DNA of 11,587 nt. It comes from Polyangiaceae bacterium. Its GTDB lineage: Bacteria; Myxococcota_A; Polyangia; Polyangiales; Polyangiaceae. The DNA lies in the NCBI GenBank assembly GCA_016715885.1, contig JADJXL010000022.1, forward strand, positions 1 to 11,587, in the 5' to 3' direction. Positions 1 to 11,587 of the stretch are shown piece after piece. The translations under genes and the position numbers were made by a program. The notes below the pieces were generated by a model. It was given only the letters and a program-made list of their open reading frames with translations. It searched no databases and had not been told where the DNA came from. Every line of letters begins with the position of its first letter. The first letter of the stretch is position 1.

Positions 1-1506
1 ACTTCACGACGCGGTCGCCCGTGACGAGCGATGCCGTCGCCAAAATCGACGCCCGTCAGGCTGTCCGGAGACCGATGCAATGAGCACATATCCGTCGCCC
101 GCCGTGAAGGCCGGCCATTTCCGTGTCGTCGTAGGTACGCACCAACGAAGGCGCGTCCATTTGCGTAAGTGTGGATGGAATCGGAGCGCCGTGATACCAA
201 TGCACCGTGGCGACGATATCCGAATATCGTGCACGTGCACGCAAGTACGTGATCTGCGTTGTCCGCGTCGTTCAGGGGCCGCATCCTCGACGACGCTCGC
301 AGCGCCGATGCATCGAAGGTGAACCACCAGGGTTGCGCCCTGCGAAGGACCCGAACCGGCATCCAACCATTGAGGTCGATGGGTATCTTGGTCCGCTGCC
401 GGACGACGCCATCGTTTGCGAGCGGCGTGATCAGTTCGATGTCGTGATGCTGTCGACGGTGGGCGAAAGAATGGTGGCCCATTCGAAAGGAGCGTTCGGT
501 GTGGCGACGGCAGCGCACACTTCGTCGTCGCAAACGTGGCTCGAGCATTCCTGTCTTCCGGATGTGCACGGCGCGCCGGCATTGGATTGGCAGTTGCCTT
601 GTCCATCCCCTCGGCGGCACGCCGACGGGTGACGAATTCGAATCGCCTTGCCCATTGACCACGTTCGAGCAGGTTTCCGAGCCGGTCCGTTGCACGCCAT
701 GCACGTTCCGGTGCATGCCGTATCGCAACCAGACGCGTCGACGCAGAAACCGGACGAGCATTCGCGCTGGTCGCAAGTACGATCCATTGTCGACCATCGT
801 GCAAGCGGCTGCGCCGCTGCACGTACCGCTGCCGCCGCATTCATCGTCGGGATCGGTTCCCGCCATGATCACGCCGCATTGACCATTGATGCCGCCACCC
901 TTCTTGGCAGCCGAACATGCTCTGCATGTCTCCGTACACGCGCCGCCGCAGCAATATCCATCCACGCAATACCCGGACAAACATTGCGCTCGCGTCACAT
1001 ACGACGCCGTTGTAGCTTTGGCACGTGCCCGTTCCGCTGCACGCACCGGCCGCGCATTCATTGTCGGGATCCTTGCTCGCTGCAATGGGACCACACGTCC
1101 CGTCGGAACCTTGGCTCTTCTTTGTCGCCGTGCAAGCCTCGCACGTTCCCGAGCACGCCGTATGCGCACAGACGTTGTCGACTCAATTCCCCGACGCGCA
1201 TTGCGGATCCCGCGCTGCGCAGCTTATTTTTCGAGGCCCACGGGCGCCGTGCCACCCTGCCCGCTCCGGCGCCTGCTCGCCGGTGCATTCGTCGTCGGGA
1301 TCGGTTCCCGCCGAAATCGGTCCACATTACCCGTTGACGCCGCCTCCCTTTTTGGCAGCCGAACACGCCTACAGCTTCCCGTGCAAGCGTTGCCGCAACA
1401 ATATCCGTCGGCGCAATACCCCGACAAACAGTCGCCCGCCGAACTGCAAACCGCGCCGTTGTACCCTTGGCGTCCCCGATCCATGGACACCCACGCAAAA
1501 GATTCG

Positions 1507-2190
1507 TTATCGGGGTCCTTGTTCGCCAACGATCGGACCGCACGTCCCATCGGCCCCTTGGGACTTCTTCGCCGCCGTGCACGCCTCGCATGTTCCCGTG
1601 CAAGCAGCGTCGCAACAGACGCCGTCGGCGCAATTCCCGGACGAACATTGCGCGCCCATCGAGCACGCGGCGCCATTGCCGAGCCCCGCCATCACGCATG
1701 CGCCCGCGCCGTTGCATTCGCCGCCCGTGCATTCGTCATCCGGATCGGTCCCCGATGCAATTGCCCCGCATTGCCCGTTGAATCCACCTCCCCGTTTCGC
1801 AGCCGAACATGCCCGACACGTCTCCGAGCACGGAGCGCCGCAGCAATACCCATCCGCGCAATTGCCCGACAAGCAATCCGTCGTCTCGCCGCACGTCGCG
1901 CCGTTGTACTTTTTGCAGCTCCCGGTACCATCGCACGAGCCGGATGCGCATTCGTTGTCAGGATCCCCGTAGAGCGCAATCGGGCCGCACGTTCCGTCGT
2001 CGCCTTGACCTTTTTTCGCCGCCGTACACGCCTCGCACGTCCCGCTGCACGCACTGTCACAGCACACGCCATCGACGCAAAACCCGCTCGCGCATTCCGC
2101 GCCCGTGCTGCACGTTTGCGCATTGCTCGGTGGAGGAAGCACCGACTCTGCAGATGCTTTTTCCGCGCACCCCCGGCCCGGCAACTTCAT
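1507..2190 (-). CDS. Cysteine-rich repeat segment (about 3.5 copies of a CxSGxCxDGxCCxxxCxGTCxACxxAKKGxGxDGxCGPI...DPDxEC module). It is the body of the lipoprotein gene and continues from the 2057..2383 segment through a frameshift.
   Basis: The 227-aa ORF contains 40+ cysteines in a regularly spaced repeat. The module resembles the Dickkopf N-terminal cysteine-rich fold (DCxSGxCxDGyCC). The listed Met start is probably not the real one, because the upstream frame carries the signal peptide. Confidence 0.5.
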   Translation of the reverse strand: MKLPGRGCAEKASAESVLPPPSNAQTCSTGAECASGFCVDGVCCDSACSGTCEACTAAKKGQGDDGTCGPIALYGDPDNECASGSCDGTGSCKKYNGATCGETTDCLSGNCADGYCCGAPCSETCRACSAAKRGGGFNGQCGAIASGTDPDDECTGGECNGAGACVMAGLGNGAACSMGAQCSSGNCADGVCCDAACTGTCEACTAAKKSQGADGTCGPIVGEQGPR

Positions 2191-2383
2191 CGGGTCCCCA
2201 AGGCACCGCCTCTTCGCTCACGGTATCCGTACTGCGAACACTGCCGCTCGTTCCGCCAGCACCTTCCGTGCTGCCCTGGTCTTCGGCGCCGCATCCGGTC
2301 GCGGCGGTCATGAGTGCCAAACAAAGGACGCCAAGTGATCCTCGGGTGGGCCCAAAAGGCACCCGGTGCCAAGTCGAATTCAT
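2057..2383 (-). CDS. N-terminal segment (signal peptide with probable lipobox, LGVLCLALMTAATGC) of the cysteine-rich repeat lipoprotein. It switches into the frame of ORF 1507..2190 at about 2150.
   Basis: ATG at 2381-2383 on the minus strand. A hydrophobic h-region is followed by Cys. Deleting one A from the A5 run at about 2150-2154 joins the reading ...DEVAGPGVRGK to ASAESVLPPPSNAQTCSTGAECASGFCVDG... in the next frame. Confidence 0.45.
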   Translation of the reverse strand: MNSTWHRVPFGPTRGSLGVLCLALMTAATGCGAEDQGSTEGAGGTSGSVRSTDTVSEEAVPWGPDEVAGPGVRGKSICRVGASSTEQCANVQHGRGMRERVLRRWRVL

Positions 2384-2572
2384 TGTCGTGTGCCCTTTCT
2401 TCGTGGCGCAACCGTGCTAGCGCCCCAGTTTTCGAAATGCGCGCATCCGCGGCTTCTGCGTAGGATGTTATCAAACCACTGCTTGGTCTTCAATTGATTG
2501 ATGTTCCCCCGCGCGCACTTCTCGCTATCTTGCTCGCGCCGAGCGCACGCGCGGCAAGAGGAGTGCGACGAG
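2384..2572. promoter_or_regulatory. Divergent intergenic promoter region between the minus-strand lipoprotein gene (start 2383) and the plus-strand Rieske/cytochrome b operon (start 2573). It includes the Rieske RBS AAGAGGAG at 2556-2563.
   Basis: 189 bp non-coding gap between divergent gene starts. AAGAGGAG lies 9 nt upstream of ATG 2573. AT-richer stretches are present (ttgattgatg, ttatcaaacc). Exact -35/-10 boxes are not resolved. Confidence 0.4.
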
Positions 2573-3151
2573 ATGGCGGAAGAGATGCAGAACGAGCTGG
2601 TCGAAGAGCCTCCCAGGGTGGAACCTCCAGCAGACCTAGGCCGGACGACGAACCGTCGAGGTGCCCTCAAGGCGCTCGCTGCCGCGTCGGGAGCGATTTA
2701 TGCCGGCGCGCTCATCGTGCCCGTCACCCGCATGCTCGCCCCCTCCTCCAACGGCGAAGCGGGAAAGGCTCGATGGATCCGTGTCGGACGCCTCGCAGAC
2801 GTCAAGCCCGACGAACCCAAACGCGTCGTCGTGATCGCTGACGAACGCGATGCGTACACCATCACGCGCGATCAACTCCTCGGCTCGCTCTGGCTCGTTC
2901 GCAAGGGCGATCAAGTCACCGCGCTCAGCGCGGTTTGCCCTCACCTCGGTTGCTCCATCGACCTCAACGCAGACAAGCAAAGCTACGCATGTCCGTGTCA
3001 CGTCTCCAAGTTCTCGCTCGCCGGTGAAGCCCTCTCGGGCCCGTCACCTCGCGCGATGGATCCGCTCCAAGTACGCGTCGTGGACGGGTTTGTCGAAGTT
3101 GATTTCCGACGCTTTCGGCAAGGCATCCCCACGAAGGAGGAAGTCGGGTGA
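2573..3151 (+). CDS. Rieske [2Fe-2S] iron-sulfur subunit of a cytochrome bc-type complex, Tat-exported.
   Basis: Box I CPHLGC is at 2936-2953 and box II CPCH at 2990-3001. A twin-arginine motif (TNRRGALKALAAASGA) precedes a hydrophobic anchor. A strong RBS precedes ATG 2573. An in-frame upstream ATG at 2498 exists but has no RBS. The stop overlaps the next start in GTGA at 3148-3151. Confidence 0.9.
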   Translation: MAEEMQNELVEEPPRVEPPADLGRTTNRRGALKALAAASGAIYAGALIVPVTRMLAPSSNGEAGKARWIRVGRLADVKPDEPKRVVVIADERDAYTITRDQLLGSLWLVRKGDQVTALSAVCPHLGCSIDLNADKQSYACPCHVSKFSLAGEALSGPSPRAMDPLQVRVVDGFVEVDFRRFRQGIPTKEEVG

Positions 3152-4905
3152 AACTCGGCGATTGGATTGACGAACGCACGGGCTACCGACAGCTCGTGAA
3201 AAGCTTCGTGGAAGCGACCGTGCCTGGAGGCGCTCGTTTCGCTTACGCGTGGGGCACGGCCCTCGGCCTGATGCTCGTGGTCGTCGCCGTCACCGGCGTG
3301 CTTCTCTCCACGGTGTATGCGCCGAGTGCCACGACGGCGTGGGCCAGCGTTGCATACATCCAGCAAAAGGTGCCCGCCGGCTGGATCGTCCGCGGCCTGC
3401 ATCAGTTCGGTGCGCAAGCGCTCATCGTCCTCGGCGCCGTGCATCTCGTGCACGCCATCGTCCGAGGCGCGTACCGAAGGCCGCGCGAATTCACCTATTG
3501 GCTCGGCCTTTTGCTCTTCGGCCTCATCGTCGCCTTCGCGCTCACGGGCAACCCCTTGCGCTGGGATCAACGCGGATTCTGGGCGCTGCGCGTCGAAACC
3601 GGCATCATGGGCACCGTGCCCGTCGTCGGCACCATCATGCAAGAAGCGCTTCTCGGCGGCAGTTTGCCCGGGAACCTCACCCTCACGCGCCTCTACGCCG
3701 CGCACGCCATCGTCTTGCCGCTCGTGACGGGCCTGCTCTTCGCCATGCACGTCATGATCTCGCGAAAGCACGGCCCGGCGCTCGAAACGCCCGCGGATGC
3801 GGTCAAAGTCGAACGATATTTTCCATCGCAAGCTGCACGTGATCTCGTCGTCGCGCTGCTCGTCCTTGCCGTCGTCTTCGTTCTCACGTGGAAGCATCAC
3901 GGCGCGCCGCTCGACGCTCCGGCCGACCCGACGAGCGATTATCCGGCGCGTCCCGAATGGTACTTCCTCGCGCTCTACGAAATGCGCAAGCCGTTTCCGG
4001 GACGCCTCGAGCTCATCGCGACGGTCGTGCTTCCATTTCTCGTCGTCGGGTATCTCCTTTTGCTTCCGCTCTTCGACAAGAAGGCCGATCGAGGTGTCAT
4101 GAAGCGCCTCCCGGTGCTCGTTCCGGTGGCGCTTTTTGGCATTGGCGCGGGCGTTCTCACGGGCGCGTCGATTAGACACGACGCGGCGGATCCCGAATTC
4201 GTCAAGGCCGTTGCAAAAGCCGAGACACACGCCAAGAAATCGCTTGCGATTGCATTCGAGGGGGTACCTCCCGAGGGTGCATTGGCGATGATGCGCAATC
4301 ATCCTGAAACGCGGCGCGTGTGGCTATACGAGCAGCATTGTGCGAGCTGTCATCGCATGGGCGAAATGGGACCTCCGGCCGGCGAGGACACGGCGCCGGA
4401 CCTCACCGGGTTTGGCTCGGCGTCATGGGCTACGCGAGTGCTCATGGAGCCGGATCACGATTCGATGTTCGGCAAGACGGCATTCAAAGGCATGATGCCG
4501 AGCATGACGACGCCGCCTGACGACCCTGAAATGGCCAAGGAATTCTCGCCCATGAAGCAGGAGGACTTGAATGCCATCGTGGAATTCTTGGCGGCGCAAG
4601 CCGAGGGTGAGGGCGCGGGAATGCCGGGTGAAAAACTCGTGCGACAGCGGTGCACGGGTTGTCATCGATTCGATGGGAAAACCGACGACGAAGAATCGCT
4701 TGCACCGGAGCTTCGAGGTTGGGGATCTGTGGCGTGGATATTGGCGCAGATTGACAATCCTGGCAGTGGCAAGACGTATCCCAAGGGCGCGATGGATCCG
4801 AAGCTCGAGGGCCACATGCCGGCATTTGCGGAAAAACTGAGCGACGCCGATCGCAAGCTATTGGCGTCGTTCGTGCAAATGCAGGCGAAGAATAAAGTGA
4901 AGTAA
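3148..4905 (+). CDS. Cytochrome b (full-length, b6-plus-subunit-IV equivalent with PEWY motif) fused at its C-terminus to a di-haem c-type cytochrome domain.
   Basis: N-terminus MKLGDWIDERTGYRQLVKSF resembles cytochrome b/b6. Haem ligands are LHQFGAQALIVLGAVH (His i, i+14) and AAHAIVLPLVTGLLFAMH (His i, i+15, the b6-like spacing). The Qo-site motif PEWY is in ARPEWYFLALYE. There are two CxxCH motifs: CASCH (4339-4353) and CTGCH (4651-4665). GTG start at 3148 has RBS AAGGAGG at 3134-3140. The gene is translationally coupled to the Rieske gene. Confidence 0.9.
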   Translation: MKLGDWIDERTGYRQLVKSFVEATVPGGARFAYAWGTALGLMLVVVAVTGVLLSTVYAPSATTAWASVAYIQQKVPAGWIVRGLHQFGAQALIVLGAVHLVHAIVRGAYRRPREFTYWLGLLLFGLIVAFALTGNPLRWDQRGFWALRVETGIMGTVPVVGTIMQEALLGGSLPGNLTLTRLYAAHAIVLPLVTGLLFAMHVMISRKHGPALETPADAVKVERYFPSQAARDLVVALLVLAVVFVLTWKHHGAPLDAPADPTSDYPARPEWYFLALYEMRKPFPGRLELIATVVLPFLVVGYLLLLPLFDKKADRGVMKRLPVLVPVALFGIGAGVLTGASIRHDAADPEFVKAVAKAETHAKKSLAIAFEGVPPEGALAMMRNHPETRRVWLYEQHCASCHRMGEMGPPAGEDTAPDLTGFGSASWATRVLMEPDHDSMFGKTAFKGMMPSMTTPPDDPEMAKEFSPMKQEDLNAIVEFLAAQAEGEGAGMPGEKLVRQRCTGCHRFDGKTDDEESLAPELRGWGSVAWILAQIDNPGSGKTYPKGAMDPKLEGHMPAFAEKLSDADRKLLASFVQMQAKNKVK

Positions 4906-4946: not shown

Positions 4947-5354
4947 TCAATCCATGTGCTCGATGCTTTCGGGCACGTTCACCCAGCCATGTTTTCGAGC
5001 CTCATATACGGAGAACGTGGGCGCTGGGAAGTCCGGATCCGCAAAGGCACCCACCGGCACCGCAATGACATCGGGCATATCGGCGATATCGTAAAACACG
5101 GTCGATCCGCATGTAGGGCAGAACCGAAACGTGACCGTCCCGCCGGAATCACCGATACGGACGAAGCTCGTAGCGACGCCTTCGATTTTCACTTTGTCGG
5201 CTGGCCAGCGCGCTTGTTGCCCGAAGGGGCTTCCCGTTCGTCGCTGGCACGCGAGACAGTGGCACATCGATACGCGGATCGGGTCGCCGTCGCATGTGAC
5301 CCGTAGCTGCCCGCAACTGCATTGGGCGTGTCGTGAACGTATGGTTGGTTTCAT
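4947..5354 (-). CDS. GFA family protein (glutathione-dependent formaldehyde-activating enzyme / CENP-V-like zinc-binding domain).
   Basis: The 135-aa product has the cysteine pattern CSCGQLRVTC...CHCLACQRRTG...FCPTCGST, which is diagnostic of the GFA fold. ATG is at 5352-5354 on the minus strand. The gene is convergent with the cytochrome b gene, separated by a 41-bp gap. Confidence 0.75.
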   Translation of the reverse strand: MKPTIRSRHAQCSCGQLRVTCDGDPIRVSMCHCLACQRRTGSPFGQQARWPADKVKIEGVATSFVRIGDSGGTVTFRFCPTCGSTVFYDIADMPDVIAVPVGAFADPDFPAPTFSVYEARKHGWVNVPESIEHMD

Positions 5355-5691
5355 CTGCGGCTTGTGAGTACCTCGAGGATGTGAGCGAGCTTGGTGCGTA
5401 CTGTAGGCACGTTGTTCGCGTTGTGAAAAGCACGAAGTTGCGCGTGCTCGACGATTTTCCGGGCCTCGCGCAGGTCGGATCAGCGCATTCGAGGGGTCAC
5501 GGGGACGTGGGATCGACGTTGCGTCTTCGGTTTGCGCCTCACGACGGCGTGGTCGCGCGAGGATGACTGGCGCGACGGGGTCGCAGAGGCGTGGCCTGCG
5601 AGTGCGCTTGGAGGTGGCTCGCTACGGGACGTCGTGAGGTGCCTCGGCTGGCTGGGCGGGGCGGTTCATGGCGTCGTGAGGTGGTCGATGG

Positions 5692-5815
5692 ATGCGGCGC
5701 GGGCGGCTCACGAAGGTGCGGCTGGTGCGGCGCATGCTGGGAAAACCGCGCCACGAGCAAGGGAATGCGTGCGCGAGCGGAGGGAGGCGATTGCACGAGG
5801 GTGTGGGGTGGGTGA
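5692..5815. repeat. Direct repeat copy 1 (about 124 bp), lying immediately 3' of the two-gene cassette on the minus strand.
   Basis: Read directly from the sequence: ATGCGGCGCGGGCGGCTC...GCGCCACGAGCAAGGGAATGCG...GGGAGGCGATTGCACGAGGGTGTGGGGTGGGTGA. About 80% identity to 6651-6775 with one 3-nt indel. Confidence 0.7.
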
Positions 5816-5826
5816 CATAGCGGCAA

Positions 5827-6201
5827 TCATGCCGCTTCGGGCAAGATGTACTTGATCGGCCGTACGGGCGGCACGGTCGAGGCCGCTTTAGCGAGCTCGG
5901 TGTCTGCCTCGGCGCGCAAGGCATCGAGCTTGGCCGCCGCTTCTGGAGAGACCCCCTCCGCCAGATAGAGATCCACGAGCCAGAGGGCGCGGAGGGGATC
6001 GGCCGCGCTCAGTGCGGCAGTGACCGCTCCCAGGCGCGCGATTTCGCCTTCTAGGTCATGCGCCGACGTCAAGTCGGCGATCGACTCTTCGATGCGCCCG
6101 ACCTCTCGGAAGGCTTCCCGCGCCTCGTCCGAGCCCGCTGCAAGACGCTCCGCACGGAGGATCGCCTCGGTCACACGAACGTTCAGCTCATTCAGTTCCA
6201 T
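5827..6201 (-). CDS. Hypothetical acidic, Ala/Glu-rich alpha-helical protein of 124 aa. It is the second gene of the repeat-flanked cassette.
   Basis: ATG at 6199-6201 on the minus strand is preceded by GGAG 5 nt upstream. It overlaps the stop of the upstream gene by 14 nt (ATGGAACTGAATGA). The ORF track extends the ORF to 6369, but that extension overlaps the upstream gene out of frame. GC-rich third codon positions are consistent with coding. No recognisable family. Confidence 0.55.
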   Translation of the reverse strand: MELNELNVRVTEAILRAERLAAGSDEAREAFREVGRIEESIADLTSAHDLEGEIARLGAVTAALSAADPLRALWLVDLYLAEGVSPEAAAKLDALRAEADTELAKAASTVPPVRPIKYILPEAA

Positions 6202-6622
6202 CGCTGCTCCAAAAGAGTGCCTTCGGTTCGACGAAGCGTACCACGCACGCCGCCCGCGCGGTTCCCTTCGGCCAAGAGGCCCCTTGCGCTTGGGTGACCT
6301 TCCGTTTGTACAGCATTTCGAGGTCGCCTTCGTCCGTACCGCCGACCTCGACGATGACGTTTTGGCCACCGCTCCCTATCAACCAATCGGCCCCTTCCGA
6401 AAGCCGAGATTGGAGCCGCCGCTTCACCTTCCACCCACCGCGCCTCCCGGTCAATGCGAGCGCGAGAGCTTCCGCGCCCTCCTCCGTGACCCTATTGAAG
6501 TCTTCCATTTGGGCGAGCTGCAGCGGAATTTCTTTCCACTTCAGGGCCTCACGAAGATCTTTGCCGCGCATGGTCCCCGAGAGATTTATGCCCGATTGAT
6601 GACGGCGCTCCAATGCAATCAC
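6188..6622 (-). CDS. Hypothetical basic protein of 127-144 aa. It is the first gene of the repeat-flanked cassette. The start is uncertain: GTG 6622, TTG 6613 or ATG 6571.
   Basis: The ORF is intact in the window. Its stop overlaps the start of the downstream gene. The product (…GRRGGWKVKRRLQSRLSEGADWLIGSGGQNVIVEVGGTDEGDLEMLYKRK…) has no family I can assign. Third codon positions end in A/T noticeably more often than in neighbouring genes. Confidence 0.5.
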   Translation of the reverse strand: MIALERRHQSGINLSGTMRGKDLREALKWKEIPLQLAQMEDFNRVTEEGAEALALALTGRRGGWKVKRRLQSRLSEGADWLIGSGGQNVIVEVGGTDEGDLEMLYKRKVTQAQGASWPKGTARAACVVRFVEPKALFWSSDGTE

Positions 6623-6650
6623 CGCACGAAACTGGACCGCAGGTCGGTGT

Positions 6651-6775
6651 ATGCGGCGCGGGCGGCTCGCGGTGCTGCGGATGGTGCTGTGCGGGCCGGG
6701 AGTGCCGCGCCACGAGCAAGGGAGTGCGCGAGCAAAAGAAGGGAGGCGATTTCACGAGGGTGGGGGGTGGGGAGG
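6651..6775. repeat. Direct repeat copy 2 (about 125 bp), lying immediately 5' of the cassette (28 bp from the 6622 start).
   Basis: ATGCGGCGCGGGCGGCTCGCGGTGCTGCGG...GCGCCACGAGCAAGGGAGTGCG...GGGAGGCGATTTCACGAGGGTGGGGGGTGGGGAGGG. It aligns with 5692-5815 in the same orientation. It contains the G-run series GGG T GGGGGG T GGGG A GGG. Confidence 0.7.
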
Positions 6776-7003: not shown

Positions 7004-10000
7004 ATGTCGTCGCAGAAAAATTTGATGCTGCCGATCATGGTGTTTGCGGTTCTCGCCGGTGCTGGCGGTTGCGAGCTGATCACTCGTGTGGATCGGTCCC
7101 AGATCGACGAGTTGTACCAAGGAGCCGGTGCGAGTGCTGGCGCGGGTGGTGCCGACGGCGGCAGTGGCGGCATGGGTGGCGGCGGCACTGGCGGCATGGG
7201 TGGCGGCGGCACTGGCGGCACTGGCGGCAGTGGCGGCATGGGTGGCGGCGGCACCGGCGGCGGTGGCGGCATGGGTGGCGGTGGTGGCGGCGGTGGTGGT
7301 GGCGGCAATGGTTGCGTGCCCACGGACGACATGAACGATTGCACGGACGACGTGTGCAACATGGATGGCACGACGGCGCATCTGCCCAAGTCGGTCGGCG
7401 AGCCGTGCTCGAGCGATGGAACCGTTTGCAATGGCGTTGGTCAATGCGTTCAGTGCCTCGTATCTGCTGATTGTCCCGGCACGGATGATGCGTGTGGACA
7501 GCGCACCTGTATCGACGGTGCTTGCGGGATGGATTTCACGGCATCCGATACGCCGCTTTCGACGCAAAACGCCGGCGATTGCAAGGTTGTCGTTTGTGAT
7601 GGCAATGGCGGCACCGCGAGCAAAGACGACAACGCCGACGTCCCCGACGACAGCAACGCCTGCACAACCGACGCGTGCGTCATGGGCACGCCATCCAATA
7701 CGAATCTCCCGCAAGGCAGCGACTGCACTCCATCGGGGGGCGCCGATCCTCTCGTATGCAATGGCATGGGTCAATGCGTGGGATGCAATGTTCCCGCCAA
7801 TTGTCCCGGAGTGGACGACGAATGCGGGACGCGAACATGCCTCGCCGGCGTGTGCGGCATGGACTTCACGGCGGCCGATACGCCGGTTTCGATGCAGAGC
7901 GCGGGCGATTGCAAGGTCATCGTGTGCGACGGTAGCGGCGGCACGACGAGCAAAGACGACAATACCGACGTTTCAGACGACAACAATGCCTGCACGGCCG
8001 ACGTATGCATTGCGGGTATCCCGTCGCATTCGAACCTTCCGCAAGGCACCCAATGCGCAGCGCCTGGCGGAGGCGATCCATTCGTGTGCAACGGGATGGG
8101 TCAATGCGTGGAATGCAATGCTCCCGCGGATTGTCCGGGAACGGACGACGAGTGCAAGACGCGGACATGTCTCGCCAGCACGTGCGGCGTCGATTTCACG
8201 GGTGCCAATACGCCGGTTTCCATCCAGATGCCAAACGATTGCCTCGTGCGCGTATGCGACGGCGCGGGCAATGATGTCGATATCCCCGACGATACGGACG
8301 TGCCGGTCGATGACGGAGAGACGTGCACGTACGAGGCGTGCGCGGGAGGCATGCCAATACATCCGAACGTCGCCGATGGAACATCGTGCAGTGACGGCGA
8401 AGAGTGCACGATGGCCGATACGTGCATGATGGGCGCGTGCCAGCCCGGCACGCTCATCGTGTGTCAACCTCCGGATCAATGCCACGAGCCTGGGATTTGC
8501 AATGCGATGTTGGGAGCGTGCACGTACGCGGCCAAGATCGATGGTTTTGCATGCGACGACGGCAATGGCTGTACCTTGATCGATCAATGCACGGCTGGCG
8601 TTTGTACCGGCACACCGGCTCCGGATGGCACAACGTGCATGTTGGGCGGCGTGATGGGGGCGTGTCAATCGGGCATGTGCAGCACGTGCGGCAATGGCGT
8701 CGTCGATCCACCGGAGGAATGTGATGACCTCAATGCCGTGAGTGGTGATGGTTGCAATGCATGCATCATCGAATTGACGTGCTCAGCCGGAGAATCGCGC
8801 GTCGTCGTCCTGAACAACAATCCATTGCCGATCCCCGACGTCGGTCCTTTCATGTACAGTCCGGCCGTCATCAATGCTACGGGCGGCGTGACCAAAGCAA
8901 TCGTCGTCGTACATTCGTTGACACACGAATATGCGGCCGACATCGACATGTTCTTGAGGTCCCCGCACGGATTGTATCGCGAGCTTTCGACGGACAATGG
9001 GTTCGTTGGCAACAACTACACGCGTACGACGATCGACGATGCCGCGGCCATATCCATTACGGACATCACGGCGCCGTTTACGGGCAAGTATCGGCCCGAG
9101 CAATCCATGGCGACGCTTGGAGCGGGTCTTGATTTCCTGCATCTGAATGCGTCTGGTTTTTGGTATCTGCAATTGCAAGACGACGCATCGGGCTTCGAAG
9201 GCATGCTGAATGCGTGGAGCCTCGCGCTGTGCGTGAACCCTGCGTCGTATTGCGGCGACGGCGTCGTCGATGCCGACGAAGAATGCGACGACGGCAATAC
9301 GAACGGTGGCGATTTGTGCAGCAACCTATGCCGCCTCAACGACGGCTGCGGCGACGGCAATTTCGACCTCGGCGAAGAGTGCGACGATGACAACTTGGTA
9401 TCGGGAGACGGTTGTTCCTCGGCATGCCAAGTGGAGGTTACCTGCGCGGCGGGTGAGACTCCGGTCATCGTGACGAACGACATGACCGCCGCCGTTCCGG
9501 ATGACAATGCATACCATGCCTTCCCGGTCAATGTGTCGACGCCCGGCGCCGTCGCGAAAGTCGTGGCGGTCATTGGCAGCATCGCGCACACGAACGTTCA
9601 GGAGCTCGACATTCAGCTTCAATCACCCACTGGCTTCATTCGCACATTGTCGAGCAACAATGGCGACACGGGCGACGATTACGCATCGACGTTTTTCGAT
9701 GACGACGCCGCGACATACGTCACTGCGGGAAGCGCGCCATTTCGTGGGTACTTCAAGCCCGAACAAACGTTGTCGACGACCGGTGACGCCAACTTCCGTG
9801 GGAAAAATGCCAAGGGCACGTGGAATCTCCGGATACGCGACGTGCAAACGACCAATTTCGCCGTCTTCAATTCTTGGACCATGGCGCTTTGTTTGAGCCA
9901 TGGCGAATATTGCGGTAATGGGGTGATCGAAGCGGGCGAGGAGTGCGATGATGCCAATACGAACGACGGCGACGCGTGCAGCAACCTGTGCTCGATGAAC

Positions 10001-11587
10001 GACGGTTGCGGCGACAATAACTTCGATGCGGGCGAAGAATGTGACGACGACAATATCGTGTCGGGTGACGGTTGCTCGGCAACGTGTCAGGTCGAAATCA
10101 CCTGCGATGCAGGGCAGATGCCGGTCAAGGTCACGAATGGAACGGCAGCGACCATCAATGGCTCGTCCACGTTGAACCAGTTTCCCGTGAACGTGGCCGC
10201 CGCGGGCGCCGTGAAAAAGGCCATCGCGGTCATTGGCAACGTGCCCGACGTGCGCAACGACCGCATCACGATCGACCTGCTGTCGCCCATTGGAACGAAG
10301 AGGCATTTGTCGAGCGCCAATGGTGGAACCTCCATCGGTGGTTATACATCGACGTTTTTCGACGATTCGGCCGCAGTGCCCATTACGAGCAGCACACATC
10401 CCATGAAGGGACGCTACCAGCCGGAGGAGTCGATATCGACGACGGTGGGCACGGATTTCAGCAACGAAAACCCGCTGGGCACGTGGAACCTGCAAATCAA
10501 GCTCACGGGGTCCGCGGCCGGAACGCTCCAAAGCTGGACGCTGGGCATGTGCCTGGATACCGTCACCTATTGCGGCAACGGAACGCTCGATCCGGGCGAG
10601 CAATGCGACGACGGCAATTACAACAACAACGATCTGTGCAGCAATGCCTGCAAGAATCTGGGATGCGGCGATGGCCTATACGACGTCGGCGAGCAGTGCG
10701 ACGATGGAAATACGGTGTCGGGTGACGGGTGTTCGTCTACCTGTACGCTGGAAATGGATTGCGCCCCTGGTCAGACGGAAGTCACGGCATTGTTCGAAAC
10801 GCCGACACCGATTCCCGTGGGTGGCAGCGTTTATCACGATTATCCCGTGAACGTGGCGCCGACGGGTGGAGTCAAGAAGGTCAAGGTCGCGCTTGGCTTC
10901 ATCGACAAATCCGCGACGAAGGACCTCGATCTCCGATTGCAATCTCCTTTCGGGACGATCCGCAACCTCTCCATGCGCAATTCCGGCACGAACAGCACGG
11001 TAGGGTACGATTACTTGTCGACGATCTTCGATGAAGCGGCGACGTTTTCCATTGCCTCGGCCCCATATCCGTTCAGCGGCACGTTCCGGCCCGAGCATTC
11101 ACTGTCCACGATTCAAGGGAAAGACTTTCTCGAAGAAGCAGCCAGTGGCACGTGGAATCTCCAGGCGCGGATCCAACTCGTGAGCTCCTCTTCGGGAACG
11201 GTGTATAGCTGGACCCTGGGGCTTTGCGTCGATACCGTCACGTATTGCGGCAATGGCACCGTGGATTCGGGCGAGGAATGCGACGACGGAAACATCACGA
11301 ACAACGATGGATGTTCGGACATCTGCGGCTTGGAAACCGGTTGCGGCAACGGAACCATCGACGCGGGAGAAGAGTGCGACGATGATGGCTTTCTATCGGG
11401 CGACGGTTGTTCACCGACGTGTCAGGTTGAAATCGACTGTGCGCCAGGACAAACCCGGGTGGTCGTTGCGGATTTGTCGCCGTCGCCGATCATCGACAAC
11501 ACCACCACGTATACGTCGGTCAACATGCCGACGGACGGCGCCGTCAAGAAGGTCGTCGTCACCCTGGGCAAGATCAGCCATGCGAGC
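7004..11587 (+). CDS. Very large secreted/cell-surface repeat protein, 3'-partial (at least 1528 aa in the window). Order of regions: signal peptide (possible lipobox AGGC); Gly-rich linker; three 110-aa cysteine-rich modules; a further Cys-rich region; then repeating units of [proprotein-convertase P-domain-like + two Myxococcus cysteine-rich (TIGR02232-type) repeats].
   Basis: Manual translation from ATG 7004 (frame 2) runs to the window end with no stop. The N-terminus is MSSQKNLMLPIMVFAVLAGAGGC. The CGDG/CGNG-x4-5-EECDDGN-x3-4-GDxCSxxC repeats sit at 8687-8773, 9248-9430, 9908-10090, 10568-10750 and 11243-11425. P-domain-like modules (motifs AHTNVQELDIQLQSPTGF, GTWNLRIRD, FNSWTMALCL) sit at about 8774-9240, 9431-9900, 10091-10560, 10751-11236 and 11417 onward. 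No subtilisin catalytic domain was seen in the first 1528 aa. Confidence 0.85.
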   Translation, partial: MSSQKNLMLPIMVFAVLAGAGGCELITRVDRSQIDELYQGAGASAGAGGADGGSGGMGGGGTGGMGGGGTGGTGGSGGMGGGGTGGGGGMGGGGGGGGGGGNGCVPTDDMNDCTDDVCNMDGTTAHLPKSVGEPCSSDGTVCNGVGQCVQCLVSADCPGTDDACGQRTCIDGACGMDFTASDTPLSTQNAGDCKVVVCDGNGGTASKDDNADVPDDSNACTTDACVMGTPSNTNLPQGSDCTPSGGADPLVCNGMGQCVGCNVPANCPGVDDECGTRTCLAGVCGMDFTAADTPVSMQSAGDCKVIVCDGSGGTTSKDDNTDVSDDNNACTADVCIAGIPSHSNLPQGTQCAAPGGGDPFVCNGMGQCVECNAPADCPGTDDECKTRTCLASTCGVDFTGANTPVSIQMPNDCLVRVCDGAGNDVDIPDDTDVPVDDGETCTYEACAGGMPIHPNVADGTSCSDGEECTMADTCMMGACQPGTLIVCQPPDQCHEPGICNAMLGACTYAAKIDGFACDDGNGCTLIDQCTAGVCTGTPAPDGTTCMLGGVMGACQSGMCSTCGNGVVDPPEECDDLNAVSGDGCNACIIELTCSAGESRVVVLNNNPLPIPDVGPFMYSPAVINATGGVTKAIVVVHSLTHEYAADIDMFLRSPHGLYRELSTDNGFVGNNYTRTTIDDAAAISITDITAPFTGKYRPEQSMATLGAGLDFLHLNASGFWYLQLQDDASGFEGMLNAWSLALCVNPASYCGDGVVDADEECDDGNTNGGDLCSNLCRLNDGCGDGNFDLGEECDDDNLVSGDGCSSACQVEVTCAAGETPVIVTNDMTAAVPDDNAYHAFPVNVSTPGAVAKVVAVIGSIAHTNVQELDIQLQSPTGFIRTLSSNNGDTGDDYASTFFDDDAATYVTAGSAPFRGYFKPEQTLSTTGDANFRGKNAKGTWNLRIRDVQTTNFAVFNSWTMALCLSHGEYCGNGVIEAGEECDDANTNDGDACSNLCSMNDGCGDNNFDAGEECDDDNIVSGDGCSATCQVEITCDAGQMPVKVTNGTAATINGSSTLNQFPVNVAAAGAVKKAIAVIGNVPDVRNDRITIDLLSPIGTKRHLSSANGGTSIGGYTSTFFDDSAAVPITSSTHPMKGRYQPEESISTTVGTDFSNENPLGTWNLQIKLTGSAAGTLQSWTLGMCLDTVTYCGNGTLDPGEQCDDGNYNNNDLCSNACKNLGCGDGLYDVGEQCDDGNTVSGDGCSSTCTLEMDCAPGQTEVTALFETPTPIPVGGSVYHDYPVNVAPTGGVKKVKVALGFIDKSATKDLDLRLQSPFGTIRNLSMRNSGTNSTVGYDYLSTIFDEAATFSIASAPYPFSGTFRPEHSLSTIQGKDFLEEAASGTWNLQARIQLVSSSSGTVYSWTLGLCVDTVTYCGNGTVDSGEECDDGNITNNDGCSDICGLETGCGNGTIDAGEECDDDGFLSGDGCSPTCQVEIDCAPGQTRVVVADLSPSPIIDNTTTYTSVNMPTDGAVKKVVVTLGKISHAS
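7150..7306 (+). repeat. Imperfect ~24-nt tandem repeat (ATGGGTGGCGGCGGCACTGGCGGC-like units) encoding a (GGMGGGGT)n glycine-rich linker.
   Basis: The ATG-GGT-GGC-GGC-GGC-AC(T/C)-GGC unit recurs at 7172, 7196, 7238 and 7271. The reverse strand reads as a poly-Pro ORF (6991..7431), which is an artefact. Confidence 0.7.
7427..8416 (+). repeat. Three tandem 330-bp repeats encoding 110-aa cysteine-rich modules (CNGMGQCVxC...DCPGTDDECxTRTC...CGxDFT...GDCKVxVCDGxGGTxSKDDN...DDxNACTxDxC...NLPQG).
   Basis: TGCAATGGC(G/A)T(T/G)GGTCAATGCGT recurs at 7427, 7757 and 8087 with an exact 330-nt period. The third copy is more diverged. Confidence 0.75.
9248..11587 (+). repeat. At least 3.5 tandem super-repeats of 660-675 bp, each encoding two myxo-type cysteine-rich repeats followed by a P-domain-like module.
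   Basis: TATTGCGG(C/T)(G/A)A recurs at 9248, 9908, 10568 and 11243, giving periods of 660, 660 and 675. The units share only about 50% identity at the protein level, so they are old duplications rather than an assembly artefact. Confidence 0.75.

What the first reader, a model, noticed from the sequence alone, without database searches (positions are those of the whole stretch)
5692..6775. Two-gene cassette of unknown function tightly bracketed by ~125-bp imperfect direct repeats
Two overlapping minus-strand genes encode a basic 127-144 aa protein followed by an acidic, Ala-rich helical 124 aa protein. Their stop and start share the 14-nt overlap ATGGAACTGAATGA. Neither product matches a family I recognise. 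The pair sits precisely between two direct repeats of about 125 bp, 80% identical and in the same orientation (5692-5815 and 6651-6775). The repeats start 12 bp after the last stop and end 28 bp before the first start. The left-hand gene also ends its codons in A/T much more often than the neighbouring bc-complex and repeat-protein genes, which suggests foreign origin. The pattern of a small basic protein co-translated with a small acidic helical protein is typical of toxin/antitoxin, toxin/immunity or small defence modules. The flanking direct repeats resemble att-site remnants of an integrated mini-element or a duplicated insertion target. No integrase or transposase is present, so if the cassette was ever mobile it moved by some other route. 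This is the best candidate in the window for an undescribed system.
Basis: partly seen in the sequence, partly recalled or inferred. Interest (0 to 1): 0.75.

Follow-up and report, generated by a model that had tools for sequence, protein, structure and literature searches.

The report
Decayed remnant of three-gene nuclease operon
The "two-gene cassette between repeats" is what a 661-bp deletion left of an uncharacterised three-gene operon of polyangial myxobacteria (AbiTii-like protein, restriction-endonuclease-fold protein, small acidic TPR-like protein), and the flanking repeats are a feature of this one lineage, not attachment sites of a mobile element.

Summary
The sequence features are real. 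There are two overlapping minus-strand ORFs with a 14-nt overlap, and a ~130-nt direct repeat (about 80% identical) on each side. The interpretation as a mobile two-gene cassette does not hold.

A 94-98% identical relative (L001) carries three genes between the same two repeats: g0 (172 aa), A (170 aa) and B (124 aa). The window lacks 661 bp of that arrangement: a conserved promoter-like motif, all of g0 and codons 1-23 of A. An independent sequencing run (L044) has the same junction plus a nonsense codon in A.

The g0-A-B operon is complete in at least seven other Polyangia lineages. Each sits in a different genomic context and none has flanking repeats. It is partly deleted in three further lineages.

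A models confidently as a PD-(D/E)xK nuclease fold with conserved acidic residues. B is an acidic TPR-like helical protein. Some g0 family members hit AbiTii models below threshold. No Pfam, NCBIfam or PADLOC family covers A or B.

The best reading is an inactivated copy of an undescribed Abi/toxin-like nuclease module. That function is inferred, not shown. The nature of the repeat remains unresolved.

The parts
5683..5815 (.). Left (operon-downstream) copy of the ~130-nt direct repeat
   Evidence: It is 80% identical to the right copy. The positionally orthologous copy in L001 is also only 80% identical, although its flanks are 94-100% identical. It is absent from L045, where similarity to the window stops at 5811/5812. 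Substitutions show no codon periodicity (14/10/15). There is no Rfam hit and no fold signal.
5827..6201 (-). Gene B: intact 124-aa acidic TPR-like helical protein, third gene of the g0-A-B operon
6188..6631 (-). Gene A remnant: codons 24-170 plus the stop of a 170-aa PD-(D/E)xK-fold protein. The native start and the first 23 codons are missing.
6188..6201 (-). 14-nt overlap between the stop of A and the start of B (ATGGAACTGAATGA)
   Evidence: The overlap is kept in relatives: 14 nt in L001, L039, L040, L008 and L009, 17 nt in L006 and 26 nt in L003.
6631..6632 (-). Deletion junction with 2-bp GT microhomology. Relative to L001, 661 bp are missing (L001 565-1225).
   Evidence: L001 1-564 aligns to window 7194-6631 and L001 1224-2490 aligns to window 6632-5366. 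The junction was read base by base. The same junction is present in an independent run, L044 (SRR11674018, 99.8% identical).
6642..6775 (.). Right (operon-upstream) copy of the direct repeat. It lies in the 381-nt divergent intergenic region between the A remnant and the lipoprotein gene that starts at 7004.
   Evidence: It is 100% identical to L001 420-553. It ends 11 nt before the deletion junction.

Best explanation
Window 5683-6775 holds the decayed remnant of a conserved three-gene operon of Polyangia (Myxococcota). It is not a two-gene cassette.

The intact operon is g0-A-B:
- g0 is about 170 aa and is a remote, sub-threshold relative of the AbiTii abortive-infection domain.
- A is about 170 aa. 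It has an N-terminal subdomain and a PD-(D/E)xK restriction-endonuclease-like core. E73, D105, E118, G121, K134 and Q137 are conserved across the family.
- B is about 124 aa, acidic, and forms a five-helix TPR-like fold.
- The three genes overlap (4 nt, then 14 nt). They are preceded by a conserved TTGACG-N17-TAG motif about 7 nt before the g0 ATG.

In the window's lineage a 661-bp deletion with GT microhomology removed that motif, all of g0 and codons 1-23 of A. This placed the upstream ~130-nt repeat almost against the A remnant and created the appearance of tight bracketing.

Shown: the deletion, its presence in a second sample, the three-gene synteny, the fold of A and the fold of B.

Inferred: the module is an Abi/toxin-antitoxin-like conflict system. 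A would be a metal-dependent nuclease effector. g0 would be a sensing or regulatory partner. B would be a protein-binding partner, either an inhibitor or an adaptor. The window copy would be non-functional for A, while B is still intact.

The two repeats are non-coding, specific to this lineage and not part of the operon family. Their function is unknown.
For: Deletion:
- L001 (94-98% identical) has g0 at 641-1159, A at 1156-1668 and B at 1655-2029 between the same two repeats. The window lacks L001 565-1225.
- The same junction occurs in an independent run, L044. That contig also carries TGG>TGA at the invariant Trp55 of A.

Three-gene unit:
- It is complete in L001, L003-5, L006, L008, L009, L039 and L040/41, each in a different context.
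- Adjacent locus tags and shared contig lengths agree.

Recurrent decay:
- L007 against L008 (99% identical) has lost g0 residues 30 to the end and A residues 1-115.
- L042/L043 keep only A residues 124-168 plus B.
- Sorangium L002 keeps g0 and A residues 1-147 but only B residues 100-124.

Fold of A:
- pLDDT is 94.7.
- E73, D105, E118, G121 and Q137 are at least 90% conserved, and K134 is 89% conserved, in 80 relatives of 27-50% identity.

Relaxed constraint on A:
- A shows 1 synonymous and 8 nonsynonymous codon differences, against 9/4 in B (Fisher p = 0.011) and 51/18 in cytochrome b (p = 0.0005).

g0:
- 9 of 48 members hit PADLOC AbiTii (best E = 1.2e-5) and 3 of 48 hit Pfam PF18864 (best E = 2.2e-4).
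- The family has an invariant Glu in LELxGY. AbiTii is described as an ~180-aa alpha+beta domain with a highly conserved Glu placed N-terminal to HEPN effectors (PMC3710099).

Defence-type neighbours: HEC-01A, NsnA-like and PDC-M28B/C.

Promoter-like motif: conserved in five loci and located inside the deleted segment.
Against: - No function has been tested.
- The canonical Lys of (D/E)xK is replaced by Ser or Gly (E118-V-S/G), so catalytic competence is uncertain.
- The AbiTii hits are below Pfam's gathering score (21.9 against 27.6 bits), cover only about 40 residues and were found in a minority of members.
- The window's own neighbourhood (bc-type complex, GFA, Cys-rich repeat proteins) is not a defence island. 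Only about a third of the contexts have defence-type neighbours.
- The family was not found on plasmids, phages or viral contigs.
- In Sorangium L002 it is B that is lost while g0 and most of A stay. That argues against B being an indispensable antitoxin.
- Of the 8 nonsynonymous differences in A, comparison with P0002 and P0005 assigns only 4 to the window lineage (my reading).
- The promoter assignment is by conservation only. The consensus scan did not flag it.
Confidence: 0.6

Rival explanations
1. First reader's model. A and B form a self-contained toxin/antitoxin-type cassette that integrated as a mini-element, and the two ~130-nt direct repeats are att-site remnants or a duplicated target.
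For: The repeats are real and in direct orientation around the genes. They are also present around the intact operon in L001. In L045, similarity breaks exactly at the edge of the left repeat, so that edge is some kind of recombination boundary.
Against: - The unit between the repeats is three genes in the intact relative, so the two-gene picture results from a deletion.
- Seven other lineages carry the complete operon without any flanking direct repeat.
- L045 keeps A and B but lacks the downstream repeat, so the repeat and the operon are separable.
- There is no room for an integrase or transposase in the window.
- The family is absent from the plasmid, phage and viral collections.
- Composition is not foreign.
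- No empty site with a single repeat was found.
Confidence: 0.05
2. The repeats are members of a dispersed, lineage-specific intergenic repeat family (REP- or MITE-like) that happens to have copies on both sides of the operon and has nothing to do with it.
For: - The three distinct copies are star-like: 78-80% identical pairwise, with 11-13 private differences each. The positionally orthologous copies of the window and L001 are no closer to each other than to the paralogue, although their flanks are 94-100% identical. That is the pattern expected if unseen copies act as conversion donors or if insertions were independent.
- The copies are discrete ~130-nt units with sharp edges.
- They are non-coding.
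Against: - No further copy occurs in the window or in the 348 kb of fetched loci.
- Pattern scans of 185,579 species genomes and of JGI metagenome contigs returned only chance matches. The window's own genome is in neither collection, so its copy number is untested.
- No terminal inverted repeats were seen (my reading of the termini).
- No stable hairpin: fold z-scores range from -1.2 to +0.5.
Confidence: 0.3
3. The repeats are a local duplication of a regulatory segment (operator or promoter-proximal region). On the minus strand one copy lies upstream of g0-A-B and the other upstream of the GFA-family gene, which could put both under one regulator.
For: - On the minus strand both copies lie 5' of genes. 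The right copy is 87 nt before g0 in L001. The left copy is about 330 nt before the GFA gene at 5354.
- Conserved blocks (TCGTGnAATCGCCTCCCT, TCCCTTGCnCGTGGC, GAGCCGCCCGCGCCG) are separated by variable stretches, as binding sites would be.
Against: - No sigma-70-like site was found in either copy.
- The conserved promoter-like motif of the operon lies outside the repeat.
- No regulator gene is present in the window.
- High divergence between the orthologous downstream copies is odd for a constrained operator.
Confidence: 0.2
4. g0-A-B is not a conflict system. It is a chromosomal DNA-processing complex specific to Polyangia, for example a resolvase-like nuclease with two accessory subunits.
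For: - The family was seen only on chromosomal or metagenomic contigs, never in the phage or plasmid collections.
- Usually there is one copy per locus.
- Overlapping genes suggest a stoichiometric complex.
Against: - The operon is partly deleted or pseudogenised in four of about eleven lineages, including pairs of strains 99% identical to each other.
- It sits in a different neighbourhood in every lineage.
- Neighbours include defence genes.
- g0 hits AbiTii models.
- All of this is typical of accessory conflict genes, not of core repair functions.
Confidence: 0.15
5. The missing 661 bp is an assembly artefact of the MAG.
For: The window comes from a metagenome-assembled genome (named by NCBI for P0001 and P0120). 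Mosaic blocks of 100% and 91-95% identity to L001 show that strain mixtures exist.
Against: An independent Logan assembly of another run (SRR11674018, L044) has exactly the same junction and 99.8% identity over 1142 bp.
Confidence: 0.03

Closest known systems
PD-(D/E)xK (restriction endonuclease-like) superfamily: archaeal Hjc resolvases, UPF0102/YraN, HamA of Hachiman, the nuclease subunit of SPARDA
   Different: - There is no sequence-level match to any Pfam, NCBIfam, PADLOC or PDB entry.
- A has an extra ~65-residue N-terminal subdomain.
- The Lys of (D/E)xK is Ser or Gly. A conserved Lys134/Gln137 sits on the next helix instead.
- A is a stand-alone 170-aa protein in a three-gene operon, with no helicase, Argonaute or ATPase partner.
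AbiT / AbiTii-domain proteins (lactococcal abortive infection; AbiTii domain fused to HEPN RNases, Anantharaman et al. 2013, PMC3710099)
   Same: Members of the g0 family hit the AbiTii models (PADLOC 9 of 48, best E = 1.2e-5; Pfam 3 of 48). g0 has about the size given for the domain (~180 aa) and an invariant Glu. As in AbiTii-HEPN fusions, the domain sits directly upstream of a predicted nuclease.
   Different: - The hits are below Pfam's curated cut-off and cover about 40 residues.
- The partner is a PD-(D/E)xK-fold protein encoded by a separate gene, not a fused HEPN domain and not AbiTi.
- A third, TPR-like gene is present.
- The window itself has lost g0.
Type II toxin-antitoxin and toxin-immunity pairs, including 'orphan' 5'-truncated toxin plus immunity modules of CDI/Rhs loci
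   Different: - There are three genes, not two.
- No known TA or immunity family matches.
- A has no delivery domain and no secretion context.
- The truncations are simple deletions of a stand-alone operon, not displaced toxin tips.
- One lineage lost B and kept g0 and most of A.
- Toxicity is untested.
REP/MITE-type intergenic repeats
   Same: The repeats are short (~130 nt), non-coding and GC-rich, with sharp edges, and they lie in intergenic DNA. Orthologous copies diverge more than their flanks.
   Different: Only two copies per locus are known. No terminal inverted repeats or stable hairpin were found. No copies were found in any other genome or metagenome contig searched.

Membership tests
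PD-(D/E)xK nuclease superfamily (protein A) | alpha-beta-beta-beta-alpha core fold | tested here: met
PD-(D/E)xK nuclease superfamily (protein A) | Catalytic motif: Glu on helix 1, Asp at the start of strand 2, and (D/E)-x-K on strand 3 | tested here: inconclusive
   E73, D105 (100%) and E118 (96%) are conserved in 80 distant members. The x-K position is Ser or Gly. Conserved K134 and Q137 lie on the following helix. No superposition of side chains was possible.
PD-(D/E)xK nuclease superfamily (protein A) | Metal-dependent nuclease activity | not testable with these tools
   This needs biochemistry on a full-length orthologue.
AbiTii domain (protein g0, absent from the window) | Match to the family profile above the curated threshold | tested here: inconclusive
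   Pfam PF18864: 3 of 48 members, best 21.9 bits against a cut-off of 27.6, E = 2.2e-4, residues 29-67. PADLOC AbiTii: 9 of 48 members, best E = 1.2e-5. The L001 protein itself gives no hit.
AbiTii domain (protein g0) | ~180-aa alpha+beta domain with a highly conserved Glu (PMC3710099) | tested here: inconclusive
   Length is 167-175 aa and E53 is invariant in the LELxGY motif.
Type II toxin-antitoxin module | Membership of a known toxin or antitoxin family | tested here: not met
   A and B have no Pfam, NCBIfam or PADLOC family.
Type II toxin-antitoxin module | Toxicity of one product neutralised by the adjacent product | not testable with these tools
   The only indirect evidence is that B is retained with A truncated in three lineages, while the opposite pattern occurs in Sorangium L002.
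Integrative mobile element with att-type direct repeats | Integrase, recombinase or transposase within or beside the element | tested here: not met
   The window is fully accounted for by Cys-rich genes, Rieske and cytochrome b, GFA, the operon remnant and the lipoprotein gene. There is none in L001.
Integrative mobile element with att-type direct repeats | The repeats travel with the cargo, so other occurrences are also flanked, and empty sites carry one copy | tested here: not met
   Self-BLAST and profile searches of the other operon loci found no flanking repeats. L045 has the cargo without the downstream repeat. No empty site was found.
Dispersed intergenic repeat (REP/MITE) | Many copies per genome in unrelated intergenic sites | tested here: inconclusive
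   Only chance matches turned up in the genome and metagenome scans. The window's own genome is not in those collections, and its contig could not be fetched.
Dispersed intergenic repeat (REP/MITE) | Terminal inverted repeats or a stable palindromic hairpin | tested here: not met
   Fold z-scores range from -1.2 to +0.5 on both strands. The covariation terms are +0.67 and -0.99 kcal/mol. My reading of the termini shows no terminal inverted repeats.
Catalogued anti-phage defence systems (PADLOC-DB v2) | Profile match of the component proteins | tested here: not met
   A, B and the L001 g0 give no hit at E up to 1. Only some members of the g0 family hit AbiTii.

The most novel reading that the evidence does not exclude
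g0-A-B is a previously undescribed three-component abortive-infection or toxin-type system confined to Polyangia. An AbiTii-like protein would sense or control, a variant PD-(D/E)xK protein (E...D...E-x-S/G...K) would be the nuclease effector, and the acidic TPR-like B would hold it inactive. Repeated deletion of g0 and the 5' end of A with B kept intact, seen in the window, in L007 and in L042/43, would then reflect selection to disarm the effector while keeping its inhibitor.
Probability: 0.3. Interest if true: 0.55.

Novelty: new variant of a known kind. Interest (0 to 1): 0.35.

Why it matters
For the scan, this candidate "undescribed mobile cassette" turns out to be a broken copy of something larger. 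Anyone cloning the window's A and B for toxicity tests would be working with a gene that lacks its first 23 codons, its promoter-like motif and its first partner. The intact relatives (L001, L039, L041) are the right material.

For biology, the intact operon is an uncharacterised family of appreciable size. The A profile finds 607 representatives of 50%-identity clusters, and every source-named member seen is from Polyangia. It joins an AbiTii-like protein to a stand-alone nuclease-fold protein and a TPR-like partner. No current catalogue lists this combination. If it is a defence or toxin system, it would add a compact module from a phylum whose immune repertoire is poorly explored. The strain-level deletions offer natural loss-of-function alleles.

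Tried and rejected
- Rfam search of the whole window at E up to 1: nothing.
- RNA structure of the repeat on both strands: no signal beyond shuffles and no meaningful covariation.
- Coding potential of the repeat: substitutions are spread 14/10/15 over the codon positions.
- A sigma-54 or sigma-70 promoter in the repeat: not found (and my reading).
- Pattern scan AATCGCCTCCCTN{12,20}TCCCTTGC: 10 matches in species genomes and 19 in JGI metagenome contigs. All are chance matches with no extended similarity.
- Profile searches of A, B and g0 against PDB sequences: only noise (de novo TIM barrels, RecA, TraO).
- PHROGs: nothing.
- Longer relatives of A (P0260, P0266, P0280 and others) scanned with Pfam for informative fusions: nothing.
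- The 95-aa plus 124-aa gene pair upstream of the operon in L040 looked like a second truncated A-B module. hhalign shows it is unrelated.
- A against plasmids, phages and viral contigs: no match.
- Fold search against afdb50: the library was unavailable.
- Extending the window's own contig through P0001: not on record.
- The 'pyruvate-formate lyase-activating enzyme' label that JGI gives some B homologues has no support from Pfam or from the fold, and I treat it as a mis-annotation.
Full report
1. THE OBSERVATION

The two minus-strand ORFs exist. B is at 5827-6201 (124 aa). A is at 6188-6622 (144 aa from a GTG, or 127 aa from the ATG at 6571). They share the 14-nt overlap ATGGAACTGAATGA.

A direct repeat of 130 nt lies at 5683-5812 and 6642-6771. 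It is 82% identical without gaps. BLASTN gives E = 2.7e-32 for a search space the size of the window.

B is acidic (pI 4.5) and 22% Ala.

The claim of an A/T-rich third codon position does not hold. GC3 is 0.68 for A and 0.74 for B, inside the range of the neighbours (0.65-0.74).

NCBI names for the identical proteins (P0001, P0120) place the window in a MAG labelled Polyangiaceae bacterium, on a 325,804-bp contig.

2. WHAT IS REALLY THERE

Homologues of A are almost all about 170 aa. They start with a conserved MIDLDD...PLA segment that the window lacks. tblastn shows homology beginning at residue 24, FRAVIAL, about ten bases from the edge of the right repeat.

A contig from another sample (L001, Logan SRR12451724, 4810 bp) is 94-98% identical to the window across cytochrome b, the GFA gene, B, A and the start of the large lipoprotein gene. 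It carries three genes between the same two repeats: g0 (172 aa, 641-1159), A (170 aa, 1156-1668) and B (124 aa, 1655-2029).

L001 1-564 aligns to window 7194-6631, and L001 1224-2490 aligns to window 6632-5366. Read base by base, the window lacks L001 565-1225, which is 661 bp, with a 2-bp GT microhomology at the junction. The lost DNA holds the 76-nt leader region, all of g0 and codons 1-23 of A.

A third assembly from a different run (L044, SRR11674018) is 99.8% identical to the window and has the same junction, so the deletion is not an assembly artefact. L044 also carries TGG>TGA at Trp55 of A, a residue invariant across the family.

The 'tight bracketing' on the right side is therefore produced by the deletion. 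In L001 the upstream repeat ends 87 nt before g0.

3. THE OPERON ELSEWHERE

g0-A-B is complete, with overlapping genes, in L003/4/5, L006, L008, L009, L039 and L040/41. Every lineage has a different neighbourhood: FHA/PEGA, an Xre-type HTH, DUF3570, ferredoxin/kinase, AraC/peptidase, and a DUF262 protein. Adjacent locus tags in Kofleriaceae and Polyangiaceae MAGs, and shared contig lengths in the three hit lists, agree.

None of these loci has direct repeats around the operon.

Decay recurs:
- L007 differs from the 99%-identical L008 by two deletions that remove g0 residues 30 to the end and A residues 1-115, leaving B intact.
- L042/L043 keep only A residues 124-168 plus B.
- A complete Sorangium genome (L002) keeps g0 and A residues 1-147 but only the last 25 residues of B.

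A motif is conserved directly before the g0 ATG in five loci: TTGACG, 17 nt, TAG(G/A), then about 7 nt. Sequence further upstream is not conserved. I read this as a promoter for a leaderless mRNA. That is an inference, and the consensus scan did not flag it. The motif lies inside the segment deleted from the window.

4. THE PROTEINS

Protein A. With 88 homologues, the model of a full-length relative (P0002, 83% identical) reaches pLDDT 94.7.
- Foldseek agrees but is weak (best E 0.015; probability 0.97 for the SPARDA nuclease subunit).
- A profile search of 1.84 billion cluster representatives finds 607 relatives, nearly all 160-175 aa.
- In 80 relatives of 27-50% identity the following are conserved: H34, W55, D67, T72, E73, A76, W90, R94, R95, D105 (100%), W106, E118, G121 (100%), K134, Q137 and P159.
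- By secondary-structure order, E73 lies on the first core helix, D105 at the start of the second strand and E118 on the third strand, as in PD-(D/E)xK enzymes. The usual Lys two residues after the Glu is Ser or Gly.
- Whichever start the window's remnant uses, it lacks at least helix 4-10 and most of helix 16-31. The 127-aa version also lacks H34 and the first strand.

Protein g0.
- 9 of 48 family members hit the PADLOC AbiTii model (best E = 1.2e-5).
- 3 of 48 hit Pfam AbiTii (best E = 2.2e-4, 21.9 bits against a cut-off of 27.6, residues 29-67).
- Anantharaman et al. describe AbiTii as an ~180-aa alpha+beta domain with a highly conserved Glu, found N-terminal to HEPN RNase domains. They propose that such N-terminal domains interact with phage components (PMC3710099).
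- g0 has an invariant Glu in LELxGY.

5. SELECTION

Between the window and L001, A (codons 24-170) has 1 synonymous and 8 nonsynonymous codon differences. B has 9 and 4, and cytochrome b has 51 and 18. Fisher p is 0.011 and 0.0005 respectively.

Polarising by eye against P0002 and P0005, four changes fall on the window lineage (C88G, M108I, V109G, V160A) and four on L001. The signal of relaxed constraint is suggestive, not clean.

B is identical in the window and L044 and looks constrained.

6. THE REPEAT

The three distinct copies are window left, window right (identical to L001 upstream) and L001 downstream. They are 78-80% identical pairwise, with 11-13 private differences each.

The two copies that sit at the same position downstream of B, in the window and in L001, are no closer to each other than to the paralogue. 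Their flanks are 94-100% identical.

In L045, a 95% relative from a root metagenome, similarity to the window ends exactly at the operon-side edge of the left repeat (5811/5812). The contig continues into a different GFA-family gene.

The repeat shows none of the following:
- codon periodicity;
- an Rfam match;
- a fold signal;
- a sigma-70-like site;
- a copy in any other fetched locus.

A 20-base gapped pattern shared by all copies found only chance matches in 185,579 species genomes and in JGI metagenome contigs. The window's own genome is in neither collection and its contig could not be fetched, so the copy number in that genome is unknown.

The repeat is therefore specific to this lineage and separable from the operon. 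Whether it is a dispersed element, a duplicated regulatory segment or a recombination scar remains open.

7. MECHANISM

Shown:
- the three-gene synteny with overlapping genes;
- the nuclease-like fold and conserved acidic residues of A;
- the TPR-like fold of B;
- accessory behaviour (a different context in every lineage, repeated partial deletion);
- defence-type neighbours in three contexts: HEC-01A at E = 8.7e-46, NsnA-like at 4.6e-36, and PDC-M28B/C at 1.1e-54 and 2.7e-38.

Inferred: this is an Abi/toxin-like module. A would cut nucleic acid, g0 would sense or regulate, and B would bind A or g0.

Against: the Sorangium copy lost B but kept g0 and most of A. Only a third of the contexts look defence-like. 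The family is absent from the phage, plasmid and viral collections.

In the window the module is disarmed. It has no promoter-like motif, no g0, and an A without its N-terminus.

8. VERDICT

The interpretation as a mobile, repeat-bounded two-gene cassette is not supported. The general guess of a toxin or defence flavour is plausible for the intact ancestor.

The family is uncharacterised and modestly interesting. The window's copy is a remnant. Interest is 0.35.

Noticed in passing
window 7004-11587 (+), runs off the end: A very large gene with a lipoprotein-type signal (…LAGAGGC). It has a Gly-rich low-complexity stretch encoded by 9-nt-periodic repeats (7134-7334), then six DUF4215 Cys-rich repeats and two proprotein-convertase P domains, arranged in ~660-nt DNA repeats.
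   Followed up: partly
window ~430-2383 (-): Cys-rich repeat protein gene(s) with ~220- and ~447-nt periodic DNA repeats (families D3, D5, D6, D8). The 227-aa ORF has no Pfam match.
   Followed up: no
window 2498-4905 (+): A Rieske protein and a 585-aa cytochrome b carrying C-terminal cytochrome c domains overlap by 4 nt. This is a fused bc-type complex.
   Followed up: no
window ~5366 / L001 2490-2590: A ~100-bp indel lies between the window and the 95%-identical L001, just upstream of the GFA-family gene. It gives the gene a different N-terminus (135 aa against 141 aa).
   Followed up: no
L045 777-1056: In a 95% relative the gene downstream of B is a different GFA-family gene (MITGGCFCGRVRYQV…) that is unrelated in sequence to the window's GFA gene. 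The breakpoint is exactly at the edge of the left repeat.
   Followed up: partly
L001 600-640; L039, L040, L041, L008 at equivalent positions: A conserved TTGACG-N17-TAG(G/A) motif lies about 7 nt before the g0 ATG. It is a candidate promoter for a leaderless transcript.
   Followed up: partly
L002 8818-9906; L040 3753-4985; L042 6343-9074: Neighbours of the operon in other genomes match defence models: an HEC-01A ATPase, an NsnA-like DUF262 protein, and PDC-M28B plus PDC-M28C.
   Followed up: partly
window vs L001, whole alignment: The identity is a mosaic. Blocks of 100% (for example window 6795-6633 and 6615-6456) alternate with blocks of 86-95%, which suggests recent recombination between strains.
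   Followed up: no
hit list of B: JGI labels several 123-aa B homologues 'pyruvate-formate lyase-activating enzyme'. Nothing in Pfam or in the fold supports this, so it is probably a propagated mis-annotation.
   Followed up: partly
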